Source: Eledone cirrhosa (Eukaryota). From it: a stretch of 64,000 nt of DNA. The position numbers were made by a program, and so were the translations under genes. Positions 2,441 to 52,706 of the stretch are shown one piece after another. Under the pieces are notes generated by a model that saw only the letters and a program-made list of their open reading frames with translations, was not told the DNA's origin and ran no database searches. Position 1 is the first letter of the stretch, and every line of letters begins with the position of its first letter. The DNA lies in contig OZ024740.1 in assembly GCA_964016885.1 (NCBI GenBank), positions 313,906,001 to 313,970,000 of the forward strand, given 5' to 3'.

Positions 2441-3635
2441 TTGATGCATATACATTCGTATATACATGTATACAAACAAATCTTCGTGGCTTACTGAACA
2501 AAACAAAAATAAGAAACTCACTCTATGTATATATACATCAACAGGCAGACGCACAAACATACCAAACATACAAAAAAATATATAAATATATGTCTTACAT
2601 CACACAGACGTGTATACATGCATGTCCCATGTGGTTTCATACTCTGATTGAAATAATTACATGTTCAACAGTAACGAGTCCTTCTGTCTGGGTTTTACTA
2701 GAGGGACCTTGTCACTCTTTTGGTAACAAACTTTATGGTTTTGTCGTAGAATATTGAAACAAAAGTGTTGCATGTATATGTGTGTGTTTCATATATACAT
2801 ACATATAAACATACGCATACATACATACAGACCGACAGACAGATATATACACACATACATACACATGCATACGTAAGCACATACATATATGCTGACAGAC
2901 AGATGTATACACATACATACATGCGCACATACACACATATACATATATGCGTACATACATATGTATATACAAACATACATACATACATACATACATACAT
3001 ACAATGGCGACCGTTGTGGTCAGTGTCCGATAATTGGACGTGTGTAATTACGGCTTACATGAAGGCAACATACCATATATTGGAAAAAGTTGAGCTACAT
3101 TACGCGGTAAGATTACATACAATAATTCTACATAAGTGTTTGAACTGTAAGTGTGTTGTAAAACACCTATTTATATGAACGATACATACACTTATGATAT
3201 ATGAACGATACATACACTTTAACATATAAATGCAACGTTGTTATATTACATTTATAAAGAAATATAAAAGTAACGTTTTCGATTCAGAAACAAAAATATA
3301 AGTGTTTGAACTGTGAATGTTGTGAATATGTTGTAAAACACCTATTTATATGAATGATACATAAACTTTAACATATAAATACAGCGTTGTTATATTATAT
3401 TACATTCGTAAAGGAATATACTAAGTAACGGTTCTTTTTGTTCTCGATTCAAACGATTCAAGAACAACGTTTAAAACACAGTTGTAGAATTAAAAACTAA
3501 CTGAAAAGAAATATTACCCAAGCTGTGAATAACTTTAAATTTGATTCTGACAGAACTTTGTCGTAACTTTTAAAGAAGATCATCGACTATTAAAAAAAAA
3601 TAAATACAAAATATTAGTGAATAGACGAACTCATC

Positions 3636-5063
3636 ATGGCAAAAAGTACAAGTCTCCTTCGACCAAATCGCAATTACAACCGTTGTATACAGTGGAGCTA
3701 CGAGCTTAACAAAGAATTATATGAAGCATACAAACAATCTGAACCCCAAAAGTTCGGTTTTATGCAAAGGCTAAAAACTTTATGGAACTCCAAACACCCA
3801 GAATTAGACTTTTCTCCAAAGCATCTAAATGAACAGGCAAAACGTATCATTAGATGTAAATTGATACATCTAACGGAATCGAGTGATACTACAAATACAG
3901 CCCTTGTAGACAACCACCCCACCTCCACTGACAGACAAAGAGAATGGCCGGCTAAATCTAACAGTGAACAGCTCACCAACAATTTTGCTGAAATCCATCC
4001 CACTTCCACTGAAGAACAGCGAGAAAGGTCAGCTGACTCTAGTAGTAATTGTCACCACATCAACAACGAGGCTGCAATTCATGACTCTACTGAACAAACA
4101 GAGCACCAAAAACTTGTGGGCACCCTACAAGTGATATGGAACGATATGTTTCAAGAGATACACAGCCTTAATGTGAGTGACAGACCATACAACACTAGAG
4201 TCAGTAAAGAACCCACTAAATTGGAATTGGAAGCGGTGAACGAAATAGCTGGCAATTATCTGAAGGCTATACGATCTAAAGGTGTAGAAACGACATTTGA
4301 AACGCTCAATGTTTTGTTATATGTTTCAGCTGTCACATTGCTATCATATAACACACATCTAAAACCACGCAATCAAGATACAAACAGAAAGCCTGAACCA
4401 GCGTGGATGCGAAATTTAAAAACCAAAATTTTGTCCCTGAGACGAAGTATCTCACACATCGCAGTCGTTATGAAATGCAACATAGAGAGAAACTTCACAC
4501 GACACCAGGAAGACCTAAAGAAAAAGTTAGAGAGACGATTTGGAGATACCAAATTTAAAACTTTGAACTCCAAATTACACCAGTTGAAACAACAACTCAC
4601 AGCTACAACAAAAAGACTAAAATATAAGTCAACAGCCCATAAACGACAAGTGCTAAATAGATTGTTTGCCAGAGATCCTAAATCAGTTTATCGCAGCTTC
4701 GGTGGCAAAAGCTCAATCCCTGTAAACGACACCCCTTCAAAAGAACAGGTTGAGAACTACTGGAGATCTGTATGGGAAACGGATGACGGATTCAACAGAC
4801 AAGCTAATTGGCTAAAACAACTGGAACAGGACTACTGCCAACATGTCCAGACAAAACAATATGACATAGATGAGTCAATACTGGAAACAGCTCTACAGAA
4901 AATGTCGAATAGGAAATCGCCAGGCCCAGACCTCATTACAGGATACTGGTTGAAGAATTTCACTTTCTATCGGCAAGATCTCATACGGCTGTTTACAGAA
5001 ACCATTAAGGGCACACAAGAACTGCCCAGATGGTTATCAACTGCCACTACTCTCCTTGCTAAA
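3636..5063 (+). CDS. Dong/R4 ORF, N-terminal half (up to the frameshift near 5063)
   Basis: ORF 3636-5177 carries PAWMRNL, NRLFARDPKSVYR and KSPGPDLITGYWLK (pre-RT motifs). Homology continues in the other frame as TTLAKNYRPIACQNIMYK. Confidence 0.8.
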
Positions 5064-7132
5064 CCACCCTTGCTAAAAATTACCGCCCAATTGCCTGCCA
5101 AAACATCATGTATAAATTATATACTGGGTGCCTTAACCTGTTCTTACAAGATCACTGTGCTACCAACAACATCATAACACCTGAGCAAGCTGGTGGAAAG
5201 AGGGAGGTGTGGGGTTGCATAGATCACCTACTAACTAACAAAATGATTCAGGAAAAAACAACAAAGAATCGCAGAAACATGACTGTCGTGTGGCTGGACT
5301 ATCAAAAAGCATTTGATAGTGTACCTCATGGGTGGATTATTAAGGCTTTACAGTTAGCTAAAGTCCCACAACCATTAGTAGCTGCTGTTGAACGCCTGAC
5401 CAAGAACTGGTACACCAATTTGATCCTTAGAGGTGAGAAGGAGCAGGTTAAGACTGATAGGATACATTACCAGAAGGGCATCTTTCAGGGTGATAGCTTG
5501 TCAGTACTACTCTTCGTTCTCTCACTGAATCCACTATCTTACCTACTCAGGAAACAAGGTGGACAAAGAAGTGGGCCCAGAAGTATCTCCCATCTTTTCT
5601 TTGTTGATGACCTGAAGTTGTATGGGCCAAATATCAATGACATCAAGAAACAATTGGACCTCATTACACAATTTTCAACCGACATCAAAATGAAATTTGG
5701 TGAGTCCAAGTGTGCATATTTGGCAGTAAAACGTGGAAGAGCTGTGCCCTCCTCTAGAAATCTAGATATGAACGGCCTGACAATACAACCTCTGCAGTCA
5801 GGTGACAACTACAGATATCTTGGACAGGATGAGAATGTCAGATATGATGGACCCATAAATAAGGAGAGAACCAGAACTGAATACCTCAGAAGAGTAAAAA
5901 AAATATGGTCATCAGAACTGTCAGCATACAACAAATACATTGCCCACAATACCTATGCTGTGCCAATTCTAACGCCAACATTTGGCCTACTGAACTGGTC
6001 ATTGCAAGAACTAAGTGAGATGGATGTTAGAACTCGTAAACTTCTCAGTGTTACTGGGAACTTTAACATCAATGGTGATGTGGATAGGCTATACTTCTCA
6101 CGCAAGGAAGGTGGCCGGGGTCTAAAATCAATATTAACAACATATGAAACCCGGATAGTAACACTGAAGCAACACCTTCAACAGAGGAAAAAGGTTGGCG
6201 ACCATCTTGCTCAGGTTTATGAGCATGAAAAAAGAAATATCATTAGAATAGCGACTGATCTGGAGGAGAGATATGGAATAAAGCCTGATATAAATCTCTC
6301 ACCCAGAGAAATCGGAAGATCCTATTCAATGTTCAAACAAGAAAAAAAAATTGACCAATTTACAGAGAAAGTTGTGCATGGATACTTGAGGCGTAAAACA
6401 CAGACCATAGAGGGGATAAACCACTCAAAAAGCCTGGCATGGAGTTCCGACAAGTTTATGTCATCACACCTTGAGGGATATCTCTATGCAATACAGGAAC
6501 AAGAACTCCCTACCAAATATCTGCTGCACAAAAGAGGAGGGCCAGCAGCTGACAATAAATGTAGGCTATGTAAAACAAAGATCGAGGATGTAAGCCACAT
6601 TGTTGCCAGCTGCGAAAGAATGTCATCTCGCTACTACCTCCCCATGAGACACGATGGGATAGCTAGAACTATCTGGAACGCACTTCGGAAAACAAAATTA
6701 ACAACAAACGAGGAAGAATATATTGAGACAGATGGCACTAAGGAATACTGGTGGAACCTGAAAATAAAAACTGCCACCAAATTAAAGCACAACCGGCCTG
6801 ATATTGTAGTTTGGGACCACACATTGAAAACGTGTTCTGTTGTGGAGATCAGCTGCCCACTTGATGTAAACGTTGTCAGAAAAATACAGGAGAAGGAGGA
6901 CATCTACGGACCATTGATGAGGAGCTTACAAATCCAGTATCCAAGATACACCTTTAGCTTCATACCCATCATTATTGGTGCTACGGGTTATATACCAACC
7001 CGCTTGGACCAAAGTATGACCGAACTTGGATTTGCGGACAAAAAGCGCAGCTCCCTAATTCATAGTCTACAAATGGCTGCGATAGCTGGCACCTTCAAAA
7101 TATGCAAAACATTCTTGCGATTCAAGGGATGA
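5064..7132 (+). CDS. Dong/R4 ORF, C-terminal half: reverse transcriptase, CCHC zinc knuckle, restriction-like endonuclease
   Basis: NYRPIAC, WLDYQKAFDSVPH, GIFQGDSLS, LFFVDDLKLY, GGRGL, CRLC..HIVASC, RHD, NRPDIVVWD..VVEISCP..KEDIY. Confidence 0.92.
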
Positions 7133-7599
7133 CAATTTCTTTTCTTTTACAACCTTGCCACCAGGAAGGTGGCCGGTCAAAAAAATATACTCGAAATTAA
7201 GAGAAAGAGAAAACATACATACATACATACATACATACATACATACATACATACATACATACATACATAGACACGTACAAATATATATACATACACACTT
7301 ACGTATGCATGTGCAAATATAAAGACACATACTTTCCTACGTGCAGACATACATGATGGCTGCAAACTCCCGCTAAGAGTATTGCAATCGCTTGTCAGAT
7401 TCAGATGTGGGACGTTCGGATATGGCTTTTCAAGCCTGCTAGAGACTTGCACTCCTTCGCACACTGACAACTATGGATTGCCCTGGCCTCAGGTCTTGCA
7501 TCAGGTTGCCTGTGAACCTTCACAATACCGTGGAGATCATAGCTCACTGTTTATCTCGTACGATCATTTATATATACAATGATACATACATACACATGT

Positions 7600-7640
<41 letters not shown>

Positions 7641-7810
7641 TACACATGTATACATATATACATACACATTTATACGTATATACGTACACATATATACACA
7701 CACACATACATACACATACATACATGCATACATACATGCATACATACATACATACATACATACATACATACATACATACATACATACATACATACATACA
7801 TACATACATA

Positions 7811-7976
7811 CAGCTCCCTAATTCATAGTCTACAAATGGCTGCGATAGCTGGCACCTTCAAAATATGCAAAACATTCTTGCGATTCAAGGGATGACAATT
7901 TCTTTTCTTTTACAACCTTGCCACCAGGAAGGTGGCCGGTCTAAAAAATATACTCGAAATTAAGAGAAAGAGAAAA
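7811..7976 (+). mobile_element. 5'-truncated copy of the same Dong element
   Basis: Nearly identical to 7048-7213; (CATA)n on both sides. Confidence 0.92.
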
Positions 7977-8009
7977 CATACATACATACATACATACATA
8001 CATACATAC

Positions 8010-8809
8010 ATCGAGGATATCAGCCATGTCATCAGCAGCTGTCCAAAGATGTCATCGCGGTACTATCTACCTACGAGGCATGATGTAGTGGCCAAAACAC
8101 TGTACAATGCAGTTCGTAAAAAAGATAGCCCCGATAATAAACACATTAAAAACTACAACAATATGGAAGACATCCATGTACATAATATGAAAGAGTACTG
8201 GTGGAATGTTCCAGTAAAAACCCAATAAAATGCAGGCATAACAGACCAGATATTATGATATGGGACAGGGAGAAGAAAGCAGCATGCACAGTAGTGGAAA
8301 TTAGCTGCTCAGCAGATGCCAATATAATATCAAAGATTAGCGAAAAGGAGAATATTTATGCAGAACTGATGAGAAATCTGCAGATACTCCACCCTGATTA
8401 CACCTTCAGATTTATGCCTGTGATTATTGGGACACTGGGATATGTTAGTAACTGCCCCAATACAAATCTTGAGAAGCTAGGCTTCACAGGAACAGAAAGA
8501 ACACAACTAGTTAGGAAACTACAAGTACAATCCATTAATGGAACAGTAAAAATATGTAAAACATTCCAAAAATGTTGCATCTAATAACTGCATATACACA
8601 TGTACAGATACAAAGCATATACACATGCACACATACAACTCAAAACATACCATCCGCACATACAATAACATCCATATCTACACATGCATGCATACATAAT
8701 CTACCTAGCTGATGTTGTGTAAATTCCAATGAGAGAGTCTTGTGTCTATGTTAGAAACCGTCTCTCTCTCTATTGGGAAAACATTTGTGAAATTATAAAA
8801 CCAGAAGAA
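8010..8809 (+). mobile_element. 5'-truncated Dong-like element, family B (RLE domain plus 3' UTR)
   Basis: IEDISHVISSCPKMSSRYYLPTRHD and CRHNRPDIMIWD..VVEISC, with a frameshift. Different 3' UTR ending ataaaaccagaagaa, then (CATA)n. Confidence 0.85.
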
Positions 8810-25365: not shown

Positions 25366-28100
25366 CACAGGTTCTCAACCCATTTAGGCCAAACGCCCCC
25401 TTTTGTCCCTCGAAATCACGAAACGCCCCCCCTACCCATATTTTTCCATTTTTCAATATACTACTGATTTTGATATCAGTAGATTACTAAAAAATTGATT
25501 AACAATATTCCAAAAATACCATTGCAGGCAGCTGAGAGTATAAATACATTCCTTGAAAGGAAATATATAAATTTTAAAAAAAGGAACATAAATGTTCTTT
25601 GTTATGAATAAGGACCAGTTGAATTTGTTATATTCCCACCAGGCGATACCAACTATTTTGAACCTTTATACAAGAGCAACTCTATCCAAAGAGTGCTCTT
25701 ATCTGGAAGAAAGTGGCAATTATATCATTTCAAAGCTTTCCAATTTTCCCTTTAATGAAACAGACAGAATAAATGTTGATATCTAACTTGATGTCCCCTC
25801 TGCTTTGTGAGCTTAGAGACCACAGAAGAGGGTTTTCATGACCACGCGGGAGGGTATATTTATTAGTAAATGGTAAAATATATACAACAAATGAGTAAGT
25901 GAATTGTAGTAGATGGTTTCCAGTCCAGTCAAACTGCAACTACAAATTAAAAAAATTGTTAGTTTGCTTTGTAACAATAGCATATCTAAGTTTTCGGATA
26001 AATCAACTTACTTTGACCTCATTTCAATGGGACCCTTGAACTTTATGGAGTCTAGCTAACTCTTTGACGTCAGGCTGGATTTTTCGTCAGATGTAGCCGG
26101 AGATCTCCACATGTAATTACATTGTAGCGGTTGCGAGCCTTACTGTGCAGTCTGGAAACAGCACCAAACCTCCTCTTGACTAAGTATGAGCTTGGAAAAG
26201 GCAGAGCAAATCTCTTAGCCTCTGCATGTAGGAGTGGAAATCGACGCTGAATTTCCTCTTGCATCCAAAAAAGGGGTTCACCTATTTTGGGAAATCTAAT
26301 TTTGATCATGTCATCTGATTGAAGTTCAATGAATTGTCCAAATCATCGACGTTAGCTGTGAAGGGATCTGCTACCCACATTGGGATGTCCATCGGCAAAA
26401 GGTCGACAAACCGTTCTCTCATGTTGTCTAGTAGCGCACGGAGGTGAGCGGTATAAATTTGGAGTTGGTCGTCGCTTACAATGTTTTGAACATTGGCGAC
26501 ACTAGGAACATTATAGAATTCCCGTCAACAAAGATTCCTTTCGATGACATTCAATTTGGCCAGGAATGTTTTCACAGCATTCCTTGCTTTAAGCAATGTG
26601 ATCTTCTTCCCCTGCAAAGCCAAAATGACGCTATTGCATTTGTTGACGATGTCGGTGAGGTAAGCGCAGTTTTGCCTCACATCGAGGGTTTTCTTGTACA
26701 GTTCTGTGTTGCGTCCTCACAGAAACTCAATGATAGAGTCAAACAGTTCAAAGAAGTGAGTAAGGCAGTTGCCCTTTGAAAGCCACCTCACTCCATTGTG
26801 AAGGAGCAACTTGACGAATTCTTCGTCATTATCTTGGCACAGTTGCCGGAAAATTTGTTCATTGAGGGAATGCCGTTTGATAAAATTGATGATATCAAGA
26901 GCCACCTGCAAGGACTTGCTCAGTGGCTTGCTGAGTTTCTTCACAGCCAAGTGTTGTCGATGAATGAAACAATGAACAACAAATACAGATAGATTTTCTC
27001 TCTTCAGAAGAGTGACGAAACCCTTGTTGGATGACCATTGCTCTAGCGTCGTCCGTAGCACATGATACAATGTGTGTTGTATTTGGTCCTAGATGTATGT
27101 ATTACCTGCCTGTGTGTTGTAGGTAGTCCTAGATGTATGTATTACCTGCTTATGTATTGCATGTGGTCCTATATGTATGTGTTACCTGATTATGTGTTGT
27201 ATGTGGTCCTAGATGTTTTTATTACCTGATTATGTGTTGTATGTGGTCCTAGATGTTTGTATTACCTGCTTATGTGTTGTATGTGGTCCTAAATGTATGT
27301 ATTACTTGCCTGTGTGTTGTATGTGGTCCTAGATGTGTGTGCTACCTCCTTATGTGTTGCATGTAGTCCTAGATGTGTGTATTACCTGCTTATGTGTTGT
27401 ATGTGGTCCTAAATGTATGTATTACTTGCCTGTGTGTTGTATGTGGTCCTAGATGTGTGTGCTACCTCCTTATGTGTTGCATGTAGTCCTAGATGTGTGT
27501 ATTACCTGCTTATGTGTTGTATGTGGTCCTAGATGTGTGTATTACCTGCTTATGTGTTGTATGTGGTCCTAGATGTGTGTATTATCTGATTATGTGTTGT
27601 ATGAGGTCCTAGATGTATGTGCTACCCGCTTCTGTGTTTTTTTTCTTCTTTTTTTTATTTGTAATATTATTTATACAATAGGAAATAAAATAGATCTATA
27701 TAGTGTTAACTCGTTACAGTTGAGTCAATAATTTCAGACATGAAATACGTTGTTATCGGTGAAGGAAAGATAAGATTCTAACTGGCTGCGCTTGAAGTGT
27801 CCTTGACCCAGTTGACTGTGGGTTTTTCCATTGTTAGGATCTCAATTGCCGGTTAATGTCTAAACACGCCTGCACACCTGCTCACAATTGCGGTCAGACC
27901 ATAGTTATGCTGTCTGCATGCTCATTCAAGTGCATTCACACTGGCTGTCTCAAAGACATACAAATATGGCTTACAAAACTTACCAAAGTAAAGAGCCTTC
28001 CAGTGCACTCCAAATCTCCAAACGCCCCCTTCCTCCCAAACGCCCCCCTGGATTTCCGAAATGCCCCCTGGGGGTGCATATGCCCCGTTGAGAACCTTTG
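25366..28100 (-). mobile_element. hAT Buster/Charlie-type transposon, decayed
   Basis: TIRs CACAGGTTCTCAAC / GTTGAGAACCTTTG; TSD ATGTAAAC at 25358 and 28101. Transposase remnants at about 26050-27040: VHCFIHRQHLAVK, VRWLSKGNCL, LPFPSSYLV, GDLRLHLT. Confidence 0.9.
27068..27635. repeat. 40-bp minisatellite, about 14 copies
   Basis: Unit tatgtgttgtatgtggtcctagatgtgtgtattacctgct. Confidence 0.95.
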
Positions 28101-35249: not shown

Positions 35250-37270
35250 CTGAATTCTGGGTCTTTCCGCTGGGAACAACCCCTTGTTTCCCTCCTCCCT
35301 CCCTTTTTTTTGTGTGTACATCCATCCATTGACTCATTCATTTACTGCCATTCTACCTTCCTGTGTCTCCCCCTCCATGCAGCCGCTTTTCGCTCTCGTT
35401 TTCTGGCACCTCCATATATATAGGTGAGCTATGCAGCCCTCTTACCAGCACTTTCCCTTCCAACCACACACACCAGCCACCCACCCACCCCTGATGCCGC
35501 TCGGTGCCCCACTCCCCGGCTCCACGCCCCATCCCCCACCCCTCCAAATCGACACCTGCAGCTATTGCGGCACTACTAACAAACGGAAGAGGGGCCGGAA
35601 CTGTTTGGGGTGCGGCTGCTTCCACCACCTCACCTGCGTTGGCTTGACTCGTCGAGCTTCGAATGCCCTCGCAGCATGGAGGTGCAGGAGCTGACTCTTA
35701 CCCACGTCTTCCCAGCCACGGCCGTCTGGCACACCACCATATGGGACAGCGAGCTTGCCTGACGCCCGAGCCTCGTTGGTCAACATCGTTCAGCTCAGGC
35801 GGCTCCGGAAGATCCCACTCAGGATCCCGAGAGCGGCACGGGTACCGGTGGCCGATGCCCTCGCTTCCTCGATTGAAAGCGCCCTGGACGCCAATCGAGC
35901 CAGTGACTGGGAGCGGCTGTTCTATTTCGCCCCACCCGCCCTATCCTCGACCCTCGAGTCTAGCTCAAGCGTTTGCGTGACGAGGTAAACGCAAAGCTTA
36001 TCATGGGTGATATCTCGGCCGCAGTCAGAGTTGTCGCCATGCCGAAGCTCCTCTATACACTCTGCAGCGCTCCATGCTACACCCAGACATCTCTCCTCGC
36101 TGACCTCGATACTTGTATCCGAGCAGCAGCCGAGGGGATATGCAACGTCAAGTTTGAGGACATAGGGTGGCAACAGGCCACTTTACCGGTCAGGTATGGC
36201 GGCCTAGGCCTCCGGTCCCCGATCTCACTAGCTTTGCCGGTGTATCTTTCGTCGGTAACCTCGTGCCGCGTCCTCGTCAGCAGGGTTCTTCAAAACACAA
36301 CAGAACCCTCTGTGTTCAGAGAACATGAAGCTGCCTGTGAGACGTGGGACCGGCTGGCACTTATCCCAGTAGACGTCCCTCCTCCTTCTCCCCCTGTTGA
36401 AGTCAAGTCCCCCCAACGCACTTGGGATGCCATCCAGTGCAGCCTGGCCTCGGACAGGCTCACGCGCCAGCTCGACCAGCACCACCTTGCTTGTTTTAGT
36501 GCGGCCTCCAAACCCCACAGTGGTTCCTGGCTCCATGCTCTGCCCTCCTTCTCCACTGGCATGCAGCTAGACAACCTTAGCCTGCGAATCGGCGTTTCCC
36601 TGAGGTTCGGCCTCCAGATCTGCCAGCCACAACAATGTCGCTGCGGTTCCACCGTGGACTCTTTCGGCCTCCACCCGCTTTCCTGTCGCCACAGTGCCGG
36701 CCGCATTCCACGCCATACTGCCCTCAACGAGGTCATTAAGCATGGCTTGGACGCTGCAGGCTTCCCTTCCCAACTCGAGGGGACGGCAAAAGGCCAGATG
36801 GCATGACCATCTTCCCGTTCCGCGGTGGAAAACCCCTCGTCTGGGATGCCTCTTGCACCGACACTTTCTGCAGCCGCAACCTGGTACAGTCTGCGACTGA
36901 CCCAGGTTCTGGTGCACGTCGGGCTGAGGGGGCCAAACTCCTCAAATACCGGTCGCTCTCCGACAGGTTTGCGGTCGTTCCCCTGGAAGTGGAAACTTCT
37001 GGTGTCCTCGGCCCCAGGGCTACCTCCTTTCTCACCACCATAGGCACTGAGCTGGCGAGCCGTAGGTGTGAGCCCCGCGAGTTGGAGTGGCTTTTCCAGC
37101 GCGTCTCCCTTGCCGTCTTCCGGGGAAACGCCTTCTCCATTCTGTCCGCCGGGGCTGTGGGTGGACCCCATCGCATACCATTACATTAGTTACCATTACA
37201 TTAGTTAAATACCATTCTTGAATGTCTGAATTATTGTTGGCTTTTTGCTTACATTAATTTCTCTATTTTC

Positions 37271-43258: not shown

Positions 43259-43875
43259 GGCACTACCATGCTAATAGCTGTCAGAAGTGAAAGTTTCGTC
43301 AACCTTCTCAATCGTAAACATCGTTTATTTCCGTATTACCACGCGTTATTTTAATAAAGCATATCGATGTAAGTGGAGTTACTTAAATGAAAATATAGGT
43401 GGCCCTTAAAAGGGCCAAACTAGAAAACAAATTTAAGTTAATTAGAAAACAAGTCATGGTTGTCAAATAAATTGGATTTAATCATTTATATTTTCATAGT
43501 CATGGTTATCAATGTAGAAAACAAGTCATTTTCACCAACAGTGGAGTTAACTTAAATGAAAATATAGGTGGCCCTTAAAAGGGCCAAATTAGAAAACAAA
43601 TATATGGTTATCAAATTTTTTTTCATCAACCCTATACATGAAATTGATAACCATGACTATGAAAATATAAATGATTAAATCCAATTTATTTGATAATCAT
43701 GACTTGTTTTCTAATTTACTTAAATTTGTTTTCTAATTTGGCCCTTTTAAGGGCCACCTATATTTTCATTTAAGTAACTCCACTTACATCGATATGCTTT
43801 ATTAAAATAACGATGTTTACGATTGAGAAGGTTGACGAAACTTTCACTTCTTACAGTTAATAGCATGGTAGTGCC
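43259..43875. repeat. Inverted repeat with about 250-bp arms
   Basis: ggcactaccatgcta.. / ..tagcatggtagtgcc. An extra partial direct copy lies at about 43541-43600. Confidence 0.85.
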
Positions 43876-47386: not shown

Positions 47387-47431
<45 letters not shown>

Positions 47432-47434
<3 letters not shown>

Positions 47435-47617
47435 CGAAGGAATTGTGGTAAGGAACCAGATGGACCATAACGCACCAGAGTACTCAATACATAGGGTAGT
47501 AGAGTGAGTAATAGAAAAAAGTATGACCCCGACGGCTATTTTTGGACTAGAAATAGTAGTCCAGAAATAGCCGTGGAAACGGCTTGAGCTCTGCCGTCGG
47601 GGTCATACTTTTTCCTA
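47432..47617 (-). mobile_element. Short HHR-derived fold-back element (family also at 54080-54275, 54821-54993 and 61200-61260)
   Basis: Shared tail gtattgagtac..ttccttcgtta-(TA)n and head ..AGTCCAGAAATAGCCG TC GAAA CGGC..GCCG TC GGGGTC. Confidence 0.75.
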
Positions 47618-47659
47618 TATATATATATATTATGAATTTAGTTTCCATTTATTTAATAT

Positions 47660-47730
<71 letters not shown>

Positions 47731-47768
47731 CTATGCATATTTGTATAATGCTATGCCTGAAGTGAAAT

Positions 47769-47808
<40 letters not shown>

Positions 47809-47836
47809 ATTTCACTTCAGGCATAGCGTTATTATC

Positions 47837-47873
<37 letters not shown>

Positions 47874-47879
<6 letters not shown>

Positions 47880-48813
47880 TAGTCCTTCATCAGTGATCTT
47901 CCAACCATCATCGGTATTTCATCGCTTTAAAGACCATATACCTCCGGTTGGTGCGAGCAACGGCTAAAGAAAGTCGTTGGGCCACGTAAATAAAGGGAAC
48001 AGCGAGAGTGTAAACAAACAAAGATGGTAAAGCAACGAAAAGTGGGGAAGAACGACTCAAGTCCCAAATTTCCATGAATATAAGTTCGGTGAAATCGTGA
48101 ACGCGAGAGAATAAAGACCATCAAACCTGGTTGAAATGTGAGCAAGGAAGGAATTCCGCACAGGTCAAACGGGAGGAAGAAGGAGTCTAGTCTGTGAATT
48201 CGGTGAACATAAGTTCTGTGAAATTGTAGACGAGAGAGAGAAAAAAGGGGAACCGGCCTGGCCAAGCGTGCGAGAGAAAAGAATTACGCACAGGTCAAAC
48301 GAGAAGAAGTAGGAGAGGTAGTAACAGAGAGTGAGTGAGTGAAGGGTGAGGAAGAGGCTAACAGAGAGAGTGACTGTTAGAGAGGGTAAAGATACAGAGA
48401 AAGAGGAAGCCGTAAGAACGAAATAGACGGGTCATAGCGGGGGAAAATATATGTGTAAATATGAGAATAAACGTGTTGCGTGGTTGCAAATGGGTTACAT
48501 ATGAATAAAGTTAGTCCTTCATCAGTGATCTTCCAACCATCATCGGTATTTAATCGCTTTAAAGACCATATACCTCCGGTTGGTGCGAGCAACGGCTACA
48601 GAAAGTCGTTGGGACACGTAAATAAAAGAAACAGCGAGAGTGTAAACAAACAAAGATGGTAAAGCAACGAAAAGTGAGGAAGAACGAGTCAAGTCCCAAA
48701 TTTCCATGAATATAAGTTCGGTGAAATCGTGAACGAGAGAGAATAAAGACCATCAAACCTGGTTGAAATGTGAGCAAGGAAGGAATTCCGCACAGGTCAA
48801 ACGGGAGGAAGAA
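47874..48813. repeat. Direct repeat of about 310 bp (47874-48182 and about 48505-48813)
   Basis: Both copies begin ataaagttagtccttcatcagtgatc and end cacaggtcaaacgggaggaagaa. Confidence 0.9.
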
Positions 48814-49813
48814 AAATAGGATTTCACTACAGGCATAGCGTTATCCTAAACGGACGGTAGTCCGTTTAGTAATATTGTTGTGGTCGTGTTTTCGTTGGCA
48901 ATCGTCTGTTTACGACAGTACAGCGCGGCTCTACTTTATTTAACTGAGATAAAACTTATATGAGCATGAACAGTAGATCATTACGCATCTTTTGGCTTAA
49001 AAATCTAGAAATTTGGTCCAGCGGGAAAAAGTTTATAATCAAAGTTTGCTGATAAATCTTGTGTTCAAGTGAGTGAGTAGTAAGCGTGACGCTAGGGGAG
49101 GTAATCCAGAAATGACGAATTTTTTTCGGCGGAACTCTTGTGATTGTGATTACGTTAGTCAAATGTAGTCAAATCGCCGAATCCCCTCCTCCTAATTGAC
49201 TACTTGCGTCAGTGTGAAACATTACTTCACTTTTCACTGCTAAAATGCTTTTTAAATACTTCGTTAAAAATTTATGTTTATTATCAAACTATTTTTTGTA
49301 CCAATCTATCAATAGTTTGCGAAAATATAGGTAAACATGTGAGTTAAATTTTTTTTAATCGCATCGATCGCTTTGTCGCACCGACTGTGACACTGTCTGA
49401 CTGACACCTTTGTCGGACCGACACCTTTGTTCAAGCGGACAACTTTGTGTCACTGACACCTTTGTTCGTGCCGGCATCTCTGCGAAACACCGATGACAAC
49501 AATCAGACCAAAATTTCACTTCATTCTTCATTCTTCTTCAAGACCGATCGCCGACCGATCGTATTGGTTGCTCTTCATATACCAGGTATTCAACAGATAG
49601 TTTGCACTTCTAGTATTATTAACAGTCGTGCGATTTTTTGTACCGATAGGTGCGAATAGTGCGCTATATTTTTGTACCGATAGGTGCGAATAGTGCGATA
49701 GGTGCGAATAGTGTACAATATTTTCTGAGATTTGCATCCACTAATTTCGCTTAATTAAAAATGATGTTTCGCGGCTTTTTGATCGGCTTATTCATTTTTT
49801 CCATGGCACGGAA

Positions 49814-50552
49814 ATGGAGTATTTCCATTTCGAATCAAAATCACTAAAATCGGGCAATTGGACTGATCAAATTCACATTCATGCCAGTTTTTACAAATCC
49901 ATAATTAGAAATGTGGCGAAATCGAATGACCAGAAGGTATAAAAATATTAATTCAAATGTATTTACTTATCATACCAACAAAAATACTTAGTTATTTTGT
50001 ATACCTGGGGCCCGTCAGGGCCAGGTAATGTTAATCGCCAACATTGTTATCTGTTGTCCTTTTGTGAAAGTATTGGTGGTTCATGTCGGCTCTAATGATC
50101 TGAATCCTCGTCGCACCGTTGGCACTACAAAGCTGTGCAAAGTAATACAATAATTTTTGCCCAAGTATTTTTTATTAATCATTTATTTGTAAATTAAGGA
50201 CAAAGTGACCATTCGAGGCACAAAACAGGAAAAACAGGGGAAGAGTCTCTTTGCAAGGCTACAGAAAATAGCGGAAAAGCACCACTGTACACCCATTTTC
50301 TACAGTGGTGTCATTCCACGTTCACAAAGTGTAATTGAAAATAAAAATGACTTGGGCAAGAGAAATTCTCGTTTGGAAAAGTTTAATTACTGCATGAAAG
50401 AAATGATTCAAAAATTGAACTTACCCAATCTTCACAACATTGAAAATTGTTCAAAATTTGACAAATCTGACTTCAAACCAGATATGATTCATTTGAACAA
50501 TGTTGGAAATCTTAAATTGACACAAATTTTTGCCAATGTTTTTGCCACCTGA
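49814..50552 (+). CDS. Three-exon SGNH/GDSL hydrolase-like gene (exons 49814-49936, 49992-50141, 50199-50552)
   Basis: Two phase-0 GT-AG introns (55 and 57 nt) join one open frame: KSIIRNV (block I-like), IPGAR (II), VLVVHVGSNDL (III), SGVIPR, DMIHLNNVG (V). The start codon is uncertain. Confidence 0.75.
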
Positions 50553-50732
50553 TCCTTGTTCTATGGCTGACTGACTAATTTTGTGACTTAATAAAATGTC
50601 ATCATACTAGTAATGCACAATGGTCATTTTTAAATTTAAATTTTATTAAATAATTGTTGCTTGCATTGCCTTAAAATAGTAACAAGAATGTACACATACT
50701 TTTTAAAAATACATCATTATCAGTCAAATCAG

Positions 50733-51092
50733 TCAAATGTCACTAAAAGCCAGGTGGTCGATAACAACTTCTATAAGATTAGTTACATGCTCACACATTG
50801 GATCACCTCTCATCAATGGCATTGGGTGTCTGAGATAATCGTGGAGATAACTGATGAAGTCACAAATGAAGTGATGGTCTTCCAGTGTGAACAACTCCCT
50901 ATATCCATTGATATATGTGATGGCTTCCGATTCATAGGTGCATTTTATGAGGAATTCCATGCATCCGATTTTCAGTGATTCAATGGGCATTTTATCAGAG
51001 ATGATAAGGTATTTGACCACGTTTTGCTTTGTAAGTAAATTGGAGAGAATCACTGCAGTCAAAGTCATTTCTTTGCATGGGTTTTTGTCCAT
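50733..51092 (-). CDS. 119-aa ORF resembling a SPOP/BPM-type BACK domain
   Basis: NLLTKQNVVKYLIISDKMPIESLKIGCMEFL..INGYREL parallels the NL..EN...LILAD....LK...DFI...GW pattern. Recognised by eye only. Confidence 0.5.
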   Translation of the reverse strand: MDKNPCKEMTLTAVILSNLLTKQNVVKYLIISDKMPIESLKIGCMEFLIKCTYESEAITYINGYRELFTLEDHHFICDFISYLHDYLRHPMPLMRGDPMCEHVTNLIEVVIDHLAFSDI

Positions 51093-51365
51093 TCTAAAAA
51101 GTTAAAATGATAAAGTATTACTACTATATAACTTACATCTATTGTTGTAACACCATTGAAATGCACAAGTTTCACCAATTCACTATTATGCACTAATCAT
51201 CTCAAATGCATTCATGATTTACTAGCTTTGTCATTAAGCCAGTTGCCTCAACTAGATTGCAATTATAATCAAAAGAACTTTAAAATGTCAATCACTTGTC
51301 AGTAATTCACTATGATCATTTAATTATTAGATAGTTGTTGCTTGCATTGCCTTAAAAAATAGTAG

Positions 51366-52540
51366 ACCAGATAGAAAAATGCGTACAGCAAAAAAAAGTA
51401 ATATTGTTGAAATATAAACCTTTAAAAATACAGGACAAGAAACTAAAATAAAACTTTAAAAGAATAGGACAAGAAACTAAGATAAAACTTTAAAGAATAG
51501 GACAAGAAACTAAAATAAAACTTTAAAAGAATAGGACAAGAAACTAAAATAAAACTTTAAAAGAATAGGACAAGAAACTAAGATAAAACTTTAAAAGAAT
51601 AGGACAAGAAACTAAGATAAAACTTTAAAAGAATAGGACAAGAAACTAAGATAAAACTTTAAAGAATTGGACAAGAATATTAGTGGCAAAATTTTTTTAT
51701 TCGTTTCCTGCGCTATGCCCCAGTATCTTCTTGATTAGTGCATAATAATTGTCATGCTCTCATTGTGCGTTGCCCCTGAGCGGTTGGTTCTGGTTGGGGT
51801 TGGTTGGCTGAGCAGTTCTGCCCCGTCAGAATGACCATTGCAAGAAGAATTGGCCGATGCAGCTGCAGGTCTCCTCCAAGAATGCACTTCTGGTCCCGCA
51901 ACACCAGACGAAGATGGAAAAGACGACCGGGACAAGATGTCGACTCTGACCACCGACTACGGCACCTCCCTCAACCACCGGTCCTCCCTCCCTCTGTCCC
52001 GTCATCTCTCCAGTCCTCCTGCTCCCTCTTCCTGTACCAGAAAGCTGTGGCACGCATTCATCTGGACTGCCGGACTTGAACTCAATGACAAGATGCAAGG
52101 AGAAGATGGACGGGTTGGTCAAGATCAAGGATGAGCGGGACGACAAGACCGTCCGCTGCTGCTCAAGATCTGTGCTCATGGGCCCATGGGTCCATTCACA
52201 TTATGCATGACACATGAGGCGTGTCGCCGAATGATGAAATAGGGGTATGGTTATGGCCCAATTGGTGTTCAAACCAGGATCAAATGATCCCCGGTCTGAC
52301 GACGACCTCTGAATGTGGAACCCAGAGCCTATGAATGTGGAACTCGATTTTTTACCAATAAAAATTTTGCCACTAATATTATTGTAAAATTTTTTATTTC
52401 TTGTCCAATTCTTTAAAGTTTTATCTTAGTTTCTTGTCCTATTCTTTTAAAGTTTTATTTTAGTTTCTTGTCCTGTATTTTTAAAGGTTTATATTCCAAC
52501 AATATTACTTTTTTTTGCTGTACGCATTTTTCTATCTGGT
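51366..52540. mobile_element. Long inverted-repeat element with subterminal tandem repeats of about 34 bp
   Basis: ACCAGATAGAAAAATGCGTACAGC.. / ..GCTGTACGCATTTTTCTATCTGGT. Unit aaagaataggacaagaaactaagataaaacttt occurs about 7 times on the left and 2-3 times inverted on the right. GC-richer core; no clear TSD. Confidence 0.7.
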
Positions 52541-52568
52541 ACAAATATGCATTGAAATATATATATTG

Positions 52569-52636
52569 CCTTATCCGACGAACGAATGAGGACGTTTTTC
52601 GTATTCGTCTTATTCGGGAAACCTCTGGTAATGAGG
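52569..52636 (+). ncRNA. Type I hammerhead ribozyme (U4C, probably inactive)
   Basis: CCTTAT CCGACGA ACGAATGAGGACG..CGTCTTATTCGG GAAA CC TCT GG TA ATGAGG. Confidence 0.75.
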
Positions 52637-52662
52637 TAATTATATTGTATTGTTTATTATAC

Positions 52663-52706
<44 letters not shown>

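What the first reader, a model, noticed from the sequence alone, without database searches (positions are those of the whole stretch)
48817..52670. Compact cargo cassette: spliced SGNH hydrolase, BACK-like ORF and PHD remnants, ending in a hammerhead and (TA)n
Seen: a microsatellite-free island of about 3.8 kb. It holds an SGNH-family reading frame missed by the ORF track because two tiny phase-0 introns (55 and 57 nt) split it; G, GxND and DxxH blocks are intact and block I is divergent (KSIIRNV). It also has short tandem motifs (ccgataggtgcgaatagtgcg at 49645-49710, gacacctttgt at 49400-49465), a convergent ORF, a long IR, and then an HHR (52569) and (TA)n. Known: SGNH esterases occur in ORF1 of some LINEs (intronless) and as intron-bearing GDSL cargo in giant HHR-containing PLEs (Terminons) of bdelloid rotifers. 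Inference: a fragment of a large multi-gene mobile element, either Terminon-like or a cargo-carrying DNA transposon. No replicative enzyme is visible here.
Basis: partly seen in the sequence, partly recalled or inferred. Interest (0 to 1): 0.72.

Follow-up and report, generated by a model that had tools for sequence, protein, structure and literature searches.

The report
Helitron carrying an intron-split esterase gene
A 3.7-kb repeated DNA element with the end signals of rolling-circle (Helitron) transposons carries a predicted three-exon esterase gene and is likely copied by the transposase of a separate partner, while the ribozyme-like motif next to it appears to belong to a different, far commoner repeat.

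Summary
The cassette is real and mobile, but it is not Terminon-like. The element runs 48844-52539. It starts TC, ends CTGG and sits between A and T without a target duplication: its joined flanks match an uninterrupted paralogous site at 49 of 52 bases with no gap. Contigs from two other organism labels show the same left end with other flanks, plus sister ends reading CTAG|T; three internal-deletion derivatives occur. A 5' hairpin and a 13-bp asymmetric inverted repeat resemble the 'HLE2-reverse'/proto-Helentron ends described in Fusarium and Phytophthora. The spliced SGNH frame holds up (best path 231 codons; 0 of 100 shuffles reach 208) with Ser, Gly, Asn, Asp and His in place, but no RNA was available. 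The long inverted repeat is an inverted copy of the element's own 3' end. The hammerhead lies outside the right end, has other flanks elsewhere and over 100-fold higher contig depth. BACK and PHD labels were not supported. No RepHel gene could be linked, so Helitron membership rests on ends and target only. An SGNH gene beside Helitrons is already known in fish (texim).

The parts
48844..52539 (+). Whole element, 3696 bp, TC...CTGG between A and T, no target duplication (the boundary can slide one base right with the same sequence)
48846..48869 (+). 5' terminal hairpin, 10-bp perfect stem, -10.2 kcal/mol as DNA
48868..48880 (+). Left 13-bp subterminal inverted repeat, directly behind the hairpin
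49115..49118 (+). Shared left breakpoint of three internal-deletion derivatives (joined to 50370, 50954, 51223)
   Evidence: table 5; sizes
49394..49467 (+). 17-nt tandem motif
49635..49713 (+). 18/34-nt tandem motif upstream of the SGNH start
49761..49936 (+). SGNH exon 1 (predicted): hydrophobic N-terminus and block I serine; this copy lacks 4 nt at 49840 relative to contigs of X1 and X5
49937..49991 (+). Intron 1 (predicted), 55 nt, phase 0
49992..50141 (+). SGNH exon 2 (predicted): blocks II and III
50142..50198 (+). Intron 2 (predicted), 57 nt, phase 0
50199..50552 (+). SGNH exon 3 (predicted): DxxH block and stop
50592..50681 (+). 90-bp segment repeated at 51281-51364 (75%), starting at an AATAAA
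50733..51101 (-). 122-codon open frame, no family assigned
51367..51696 (-). Inverted internal copy of the 3' end, also closing CTGG|T, with 7.8 units of a 34-nt tandem repeat
51700..52360 (.). GC-richer segment between the two arms; no protein family found
52360..52539 (+). 3' arm: 34-nt repeats (52397-52492), right subterminal inverted repeat (52497-52509), weak 3-bp hairpin, terminal CTGG
48817..48843 (+). Left half of the short repeat that served as target (not part of the element)
52540..52564 (+). Right half of the target repeat (not part of the element)
47721..47772 (-). Uninterrupted paralogue of the target (empty site)
   Evidence: 49 of 52 identical, no gap
52565..52639 (+). Type I hammerhead-like motif of a separate high-abundance repeat (not part of the element)

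Best explanation
This is a multi-copy, non-autonomous element with Helitron-type ends that carries a predicted intron-containing SGNH esterase gene and is likely moved by rolling-circle transposition, using a RepHel protein supplied by an autonomous partner not present in this window. Shown: ends, A|T site without duplication, other flanks elsewhere, internal-deletion derivatives that keep the same 5' 272 bp and share the 3' part, the open spliced frame. Inferred from known Helitron biology: RepHel nicks at the 5' T, displaces one strand, stops at the outer CTGG and joins it into an A|T site. The 13-bp repeats would help set the end point, as Bao and Jurka propose for Helitron2. The introns indicate that the esterase gene was taken up as DNA, not as a retrocopy. 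The inner inverted 3' end would come from insertion of a sister copy in the opposite direction or a template switch; lying on the other strand, it would not stop replication. The restored frame starts with a hydrophobic stretch, so the protein is predicted to be secreted or membrane-anchored. I think it is most likely a passenger here, because the commoner derivatives have lost it.
For: Empty site: joined flanks equal an uninterrupted paralogue, 52 vs 52 nt, 49 identical. Left end: one X5 contig and one X6 contig start to fit at 48842 with (TA)n or an A-rich flank before it, and X4 contig 10 stops fitting at 48843 (tables 7, 8). Right end: the inner copy closes at the same CTGG|T with another flank; X5 loose ends at 51376 (4 contigs, agreement 0.64) and 52534 (1 contig) read CTAG|T on the element strand. 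Derivatives: joints 49117>51223 in X1, X5, X6; 49115>50954 in X4; 49118>50370 in X1 (15 of 17 joints shown). 13-bp end repeat: 0 of 1000 shuffles and 0 of 2000 real random pairs reach 13. Literature passages: HLE1 = TC, CTRR, A|T (PMC11417382); proto-Helentron = 3' CTAG, A|T, no duplication, about 12-nt repeats and a 5' stem-loop (PMC4067079; PMC11417382 section 24); FoHeli3-5 = 5' hairpin, no 3' hairpin, 13-16-bp repeat, with the 3' repeat about 20-40 bp from the end in FoHeli generally (PMC5148889). Run X4 has only 88 million letters of contigs yet covers all 30 bins, a hint of repetition.
Against: No RepHel gene is linked: none in the window's long frames, no genome was held, and no contig spans the element. 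The canonical strong 3' hairpin is missing (last 60 nt fold at -2.7 kcal/mol). The boundary can equally be written CC...CTGGT between T and A. The left-end evidence is one contig each in two runs; only 24 of 365 loose-end rows were shown, and none for X1 at this place. The CTAG|T ends come from diverged sister families in one run. Contig depth is not a copy number. No close protein relative was found, so the gene's donor is unknown.
Confidence: 0.78

Rival explanations
1. Terminon- or Penelope-like retroelement whose 3' end is the hammerhead followed by (TA)n, with the SGNH gene as cargo.
For: A hammerhead pattern lies 25 nt downstream, same strand as the SGNH gene. Terminons carry GDSL esterases and end in a hammerhead (PMC6431247, passages).
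Against: The element's boundary falls before the hammerhead. In X6 the hammerhead has a different upstream sequence, in X4 it runs on for 255 or more unlike letters. Its bin has 214-fold (X1) and 127-fold (X4) the depth of an SGNH bin. No RT and no telomeric repeat tail in the island. Derivatives lose the middle and keep the 5' end, unlike 5'-truncated retrocopies.
Confidence: 0.04
2. Non-autonomous tyrosine-recombinase transposon (CryptonV-like) or another DNA transposon without terminal repeats that favours TA-rich sites.
For: No target duplication; all three left flanks seen end in TA; some CryptonV families target microsatellites (PMC8869645, passage). The 13-bp repeats could be recombinase binding sites.
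Against: TC, CTRR and A|T all match the Helitron rule, and sister ends vary within CTRR. Crypton ends are described as short direct repeats (PMC3627910, passage), which are not seen here. The window's target is a short repeat, not pure (TA)n.
Confidence: 0.1
3. Chance composite: the right 1.17 kb (51367-52539, CCAG...CTGG) is an independent TIR element or MITE and the rest is something else.
For: The arms are 97% complementary with subterminal tandem repeats; the outer 150 bp of the arms have 5-10 times the depth of their neighbours in X1. No contig crosses the 34-nt arrays from end to end.
Against: The inner arm's flanks do not form a duplication (GA before, TA after). Contigs in X4, X5 and X6 run across the inner end at 51367 (51147-51398, 51223-51477), and X5 contig 18 joins it to the 5' end. 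The empty site is restored only by removing all 3696 bp. The arm carries the same 13-bp repeat as the left end.
Confidence: 0.08

Closest known systems
FoHeli3/4/5 ('HLE2-reverse', Fusarium oxysporum) and proto-Helentron (Phytophthora infestans)
   Same: 5' stem-loop upstream of the left short inverted repeat; 13-bp repeat with the right copy 30 nt from the end; no strong 3' hairpin; for proto-Helentron also CTAG-type end, A|T site, no duplication.
   Different: Starts TC (FoHeli3-5 TGCCT, proto-Helentron TT); animal host (inferred); RepHel not available, so the clade is untested; carries an inverted second 3' end.
Canonical Helitron (HLE1)
   Same: 5' TC, 3' CTRR, insertion between A and T, no duplication, non-autonomous derivatives sharing both ends, gene capture.
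   Different: Strong hairpin is at the 5' end, not near the 3' end; has subterminal inverted repeats, which HLE1 lacks.
texim genes of teleost fish (Tomaszkiewicz et al. 2014, PMC4021074)
   Same: Intron-containing SGNH hydrolase gene related to CR1 retrotransposon esterases and associated with a Helitron.
   Different: texim has up to 15 exons and lies beside a Helitron coding region; here three exons lie between defined ends of a 3.7-kb non-autonomous element. Homology to texim was not tested.
HINE/DINE-1 and oyster Cg_HINE (non-autonomous Helentrons)
   Same: 12-15-bp subterminal repeats, internal tandem repeats, no duplication.
   Different: Those insert in TT and have the 5' repeat 2-4 nt from the end; here the site is A|T and the repeats lie 24 and 30 nt inside.
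LINE ORF1 esterase (PDB 4C1B)
   Same: Only PDB match of exon 2, covering blocks II-III (E 0.35).
   Different: Weak score; here the gene has introns, a hydrophobic N-terminus and FYKS in place of the usual GDS (motif recalled).

Membership tests
Helitron-like elements (any) | RepHel transposase in the element or in a partner with the same ends | not testable with these tools
   No genome held; no RepHel in the window's long frames; contigs are short
Helitron-like elements (any) | No target-site duplication | tested here: met
   One empty paralogous site, 49 of 52, no gap
HLE1 (canonical Helitron) | 5' TC and 3' CTRR | tested here: met
   TC at 48844, CTGG at 52536-52539; CTAG in sister ends; one-base boundary ambiguity
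HLE1 (canonical Helitron) | Insertion between A and T | tested here: met
   A before TC in 3 of 3 left flanks seen; T after CTRR in 4 of 4 right ends seen (window outer, window inner, two X5 rows)
HLE1 (canonical Helitron) | Hairpin 10-12 nt before the 3' end | tested here: not met
   Only a 3-bp stem; whole last 60 nt -2.7 kcal/mol
HLE2 (Helitron2/Helentron, canonical) | Short asymmetric inverted repeats, 3' copy 20-30 nt from the end | tested here: met
   13 bp, 3' copy ends 30 nt from the terminus
HLE2 (Helitron2/Helentron, canonical) | 5' repeat 0-4 nt from the end; insertion in TT | tested here: not met
   5' repeat starts 24 nt inside; site is A|T
HLE2-reverse / proto-Helentron | [quoted passage not shown] | tested here: met
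   against descriptions
HLE2-reverse / proto-Helentron | RepHel groups with HLE2 and carries DUF6570 | not testable with these tools
   No autonomous partner found
SGNH/GDSL hydrolases | Ser, Gly, Asn, His (plus Asp) in four ordered blocks | tested here: met
   Motifs start at codons 47, 65, 93 and 205 of the 227-codon frame; block I assignment rests on position and recall (one search gave no support)
SGNH/GDSL hydrolases | Profile score above the curated cut-off, or fold match | tested here: inconclusive
   Exon 3 alone 20 bits vs cut-off 27; single-sequence fold pLDDT 42.6; the joined protein was not searched
Terminon / Penelope-like elements | Hammerhead at the element's 3' end, linked across copies | tested here: not met
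Terminon / Penelope-like elements | PLE reverse transcriptase; telomeric-repeat tail | tested here: not met
   None in the island
BTB-BACK proteins (convergent ORF) | Match to BACK/BTB profile or fold | tested here: inconclusive
   No match; fold unusable; a short helical motif resembles BACK starts by eye only (recalled)
Type I hammerhead ribozyme | Core plus three stems; self-cleavage | tested here: inconclusive
   Pattern met with one core change; X4 and X6 relatives have the CUGACGA core and stem I changes that would keep pairing; no Rfam hit; cleavage untested

The most novel reading that the evidence does not exclude
An animal (probably octopus) lineage of HLE2-reverse/proto-Helentron rolling-circle transposons, so far described from Fusarium and Phytophthora, combines HLE1 terminal bases with HLE2 repeats and has recruited a retrotransposon-type SGNH esterase, secreted or membrane-anchored, independently of fish texim. 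Repeated recruitment by LINEs, Terminons and Helitrons would mean that the esterase does a job for mobile DNA itself, such as acting on membranes during transmission.
Probability: 0.2. Interest if true: 0.68.

Novelty: new variant of a known kind. Interest (0 to 1): 0.42.

Why it matters
It turns a seemingly exotic retro-cassette into a rolling-circle DNA transposon with an unusual mix of end signals. Tools that look for TC/CTRR plus a 3' hairpin, or for TT-flanked repeats, would each miss one criterion here. It gives a compact, recent (about 99% identical between copies and organism labels) second case of an SGNH esterase gene inside a Helitron-type element, which makes the open question from the texim work testable: passenger or helper of transposition. 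If the partner's RepHel falls with HLE2-reverse, that group extends to animals.

Tried and rejected
Own genome not held. No RNA holder listed: no evidence on expression either way. Protein relatives: exon 3 among longer proteins 0 of 64 candidates; exon 2 0 of 4; convergent frame 0 of 71; HMMER over 1.84 billion representatives gave 1 hit, a repetitive spurious protein. End motifs in metagenome contigs: 0 and 0; 3 viral-contig hits to an 18-mer show only 20-27-nt matches and are taken as chance. Single-sequence folds of the convergent frame and exon 3 were too poor to search. My first idea that the ends were 48819 and 52558 was dropped: that short unit is the target. A third intron 49819-49888 giving a more usual block I does not open the frame (stop at codon 26), and X1 contig 3 shows no letter change there, so it stays speculation. 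A decayed second copy of the SGNH 3' coding part near 51100-51280 is not significant (30 of 300 shuffles score as high). Lack of cover of the SGNH 5' part in X6 is no evidence of absence. Earlier-findings look-ups by sequence and place were empty.
Full report
Setting. The window is an animal genome crowded with (TA)n, (CA)n and (CATA)n tracts and LINE remnants. A repeat near 53900-54000 looks like an abundant octopus repeat; this is recalled and comes from no call, so the host is only probably an octopus. No whole genome was held. Copy information therefore comes from one laying of contigs from 4 of 14 listed runs (X1 and X4, organism A; X5, organism B; X6, organism C; two studies) on 48190-52664. 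The tool showed 40 of 175 letter differences, 12 of 36 indels, 15 of 17 joints and 24 of 365 loose ends.

The SGNH gene. Their removal opens a 208-codon frame from ATG 49814. In 100 shuffles of the region none reached 208 codons (median 78, max 119; real 231). Contigs of X1 and X5 carry 4 more bases at 49840. With four placeholder bases there, the frame runs stop-free for 227 codons from ATG 49761 and begins with a hydrophobic stretch (mean hydropathy 2.5 over residues 6-16). The window copy stops at codon 29 from that ATG, so it is a slightly decayed copy; 5 of the 6 listed coding differences from the other contigs change the amino acid. Ser, Gly, Asn, Asp and His lie in the order that defines SGNH hydrolases (definition in PMC4021074). 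Block I reads FYKS, and the X1 contig over 49720-49930 has no other letters, so that is the family state. Database support is modest: Pfam E 9e-4 for exon 3, Atlas GDSL neighbours at 0.90-0.91 with unnamed eukaryote clusters at 0.93-0.95, and 4C1B as the single PDB match of exon 2 at E 0.35. The joined protein could not be searched, and no RNA run was listed. The BACK and PHD labels found no support.

Boundaries. A short repeat occurs three times in the window. One copy, 47721-47772 on the minus strand, is uninterrupted. Joining 48817-48843 to 52540-52564 reproduces it at 49 of 52 bases with no gap. So a 3696-bp insert, 48844-52539, split this repeat without duplicating the target. It begins TC and ends CTGG between A and T; the same sequence can be read one base to the right, between T and A. 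Independent flanks agree: an X5 contig and an X6 contig begin to fit at 48842, preceded by (TA)n and by an A-rich sequence. Two X5 loose-end rows show sister 3' ends reading CTAG followed by T. Three joints remove the middle while keeping the first 272 bp: 49117>51223 (X1, X5, X6), 49115>50954 (X4), 49118>50370 (X1), giving units of about 1.6, 1.9 and 2.4 kb if the rest is complete. Depth rises from the SGNH exons to the parts that the derivatives keep (3- to 9-fold), as expected if short derivatives outnumber the long form; the tool warns that depth is not a copy number.

End architecture. Two bases inside the left end is a perfect 10-bp hairpin, followed at once by a 13-bp word whose reverse complement ends 30 nt before the right end. 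No shuffle (0 of 1000) or random real pair (0 of 2000) gave a 13-bp repeat. There is no strong 3' hairpin. The terminal bases and target are those of HLE1 (PMC11417382). The repeats are an HLE2 trait (PMC3627910). [quoted passage not shown] The long inverted repeat is an inverted copy of the 3' end, closing on the same CTGG|T at 51367; contigs from all three organism labels cross that point. Opposite-direction self-insertion is proposed for FoHeli composites and would explain it; this is inference.

The hammerhead. A type I pattern with a 10-bp stem I, long stem II and 2-bp stem III starts 25 nt beyond the right end. Rfam does not score it and the free fold differs. Relatives in X4 and X6 have the standard core and stem I changes that would keep pairing, but other neighbours, and the bin is 127-214 times deeper than the SGNH exons. 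Type I hammerheads in animal genomes are typical of Penelope-like elements and retrozymes (passages of PMC7229834 and bioRxiv 10.64898/2026.07.22.740005). It is best read as a separate repeat in the same TA-rich spot. The 632-bp tandem on the left (47864-48813) is likewise separate, 327-535 times deeper.

Mechanism. Shown: a mobile, multi-flank family with Helitron end bases, no duplication, deletion derivatives and a spliceable esterase frame. Inferred: nicking at the 5' T by a RepHel in trans, strand displacement to the outer CTGG, insertion at A|T; DNA-level capture of the esterase gene; passenger status. Untested: the partner, expression, enzyme activity.

Against this reading: no RepHel is linked, the 3' hairpin criterion fails, and the left-end flanks rest on single contigs in two runs.

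What is known. Helitron-associated SGNH genes are published for fish (texim; PMC4021074, parts 1-3 of 5 read). A search for Helitron plus SGNH gave 11 papers, 10 listed, none on cephalopods by title or abstract start. Proto-Helentron plus CTAG plus animal gave 2 papers, both read in passages, neither describing an animal case in what I saw. A repeat annotation of Octopus vulgaris lists 8 recently active Helitron families without structure (PMC13282606, passages; search). Repbase and Dfam could not be searched, and the supplements of the HELIANO paper (Figures S17-S19, Table S11) were not read; the family or its end type may already be catalogued there. Other papers were seen as passages only: PMC6431247, PMC8869645, PMC5148889, PMC4067079, PMC3627910, PMC7492417; PMC11417382 as passages plus sections 22 and 24.

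Verdict. A real element, reassigned from Terminon-like to non-autonomous Helitron-like (confidence about 0.78), with a hybrid end type and an esterase cargo that has a fish precedent. New variant of a known kind; interest 0.42.

Noticed in passing
window 49115-49118: Three different deletion derivatives share almost the same left breakpoint, just before an A|T followed by a T-run, with different right partners (50370, 50954, 51223) and no obvious microhomology. Unexplained; may mark a minimal 5' module or a nested 5' end.
   Followed up: partly
window 47864-48813: Very abundant tandem unit of about 630 bp (joint 48813>48190 in all four runs); many copies end at (TA)n near 48499; carries a CTGATGA word on the minus strand at 48525 but no complete hammerhead. 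Satellite or Penelope-type terminal repeat.
   Followed up: partly
window 47719-47840 and 48817-48843: Short (about 50 nt) repeat embedded in (TA)n, three copies, two of them head to head across a TA tract, forming a long hairpin that gives spurious microRNA-family matches in Rfam.
   Followed up: partly
window 43300-43830: Histone 3' stem-loop motifs (two Rfam hits at 43545-43590 minus and 43735-43779 plus, a third similar one near 43385-43420) inside an inverted duplication, with no long histone frame seen in the scan.
   Followed up: no
window 3621-8581: Non-LTR retrotransposon with an RT frame (Pfam RVT_1 E 3e-24, zf-RVT) whose C-terminal part is interrupted by (ACAT)n tracts; a further RT-like remnant lies at 35964-37186.
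   Followed up: partly
window 47408-47711, 54056-54343, 54782-55012, 60993-61259: Dispersed repeat family, 72-81% identical, with an internal inverted repeat, usually next to (TA)n.
   Followed up: no
window 26435-27088 (minus): Frames that look by eye like a hAT-type transposase remnant (recalled motif; no Pfam hit at E 0.01), next to a 40-nt tandem array at 27073-27638.
   Followed up: partly
window 50592-50681 and 51281-51364: A 90-bp direct repeat (75%) brackets the convergent open frame; the first copy is the SGNH gene's likely 3' end signal.
   Followed up: partly
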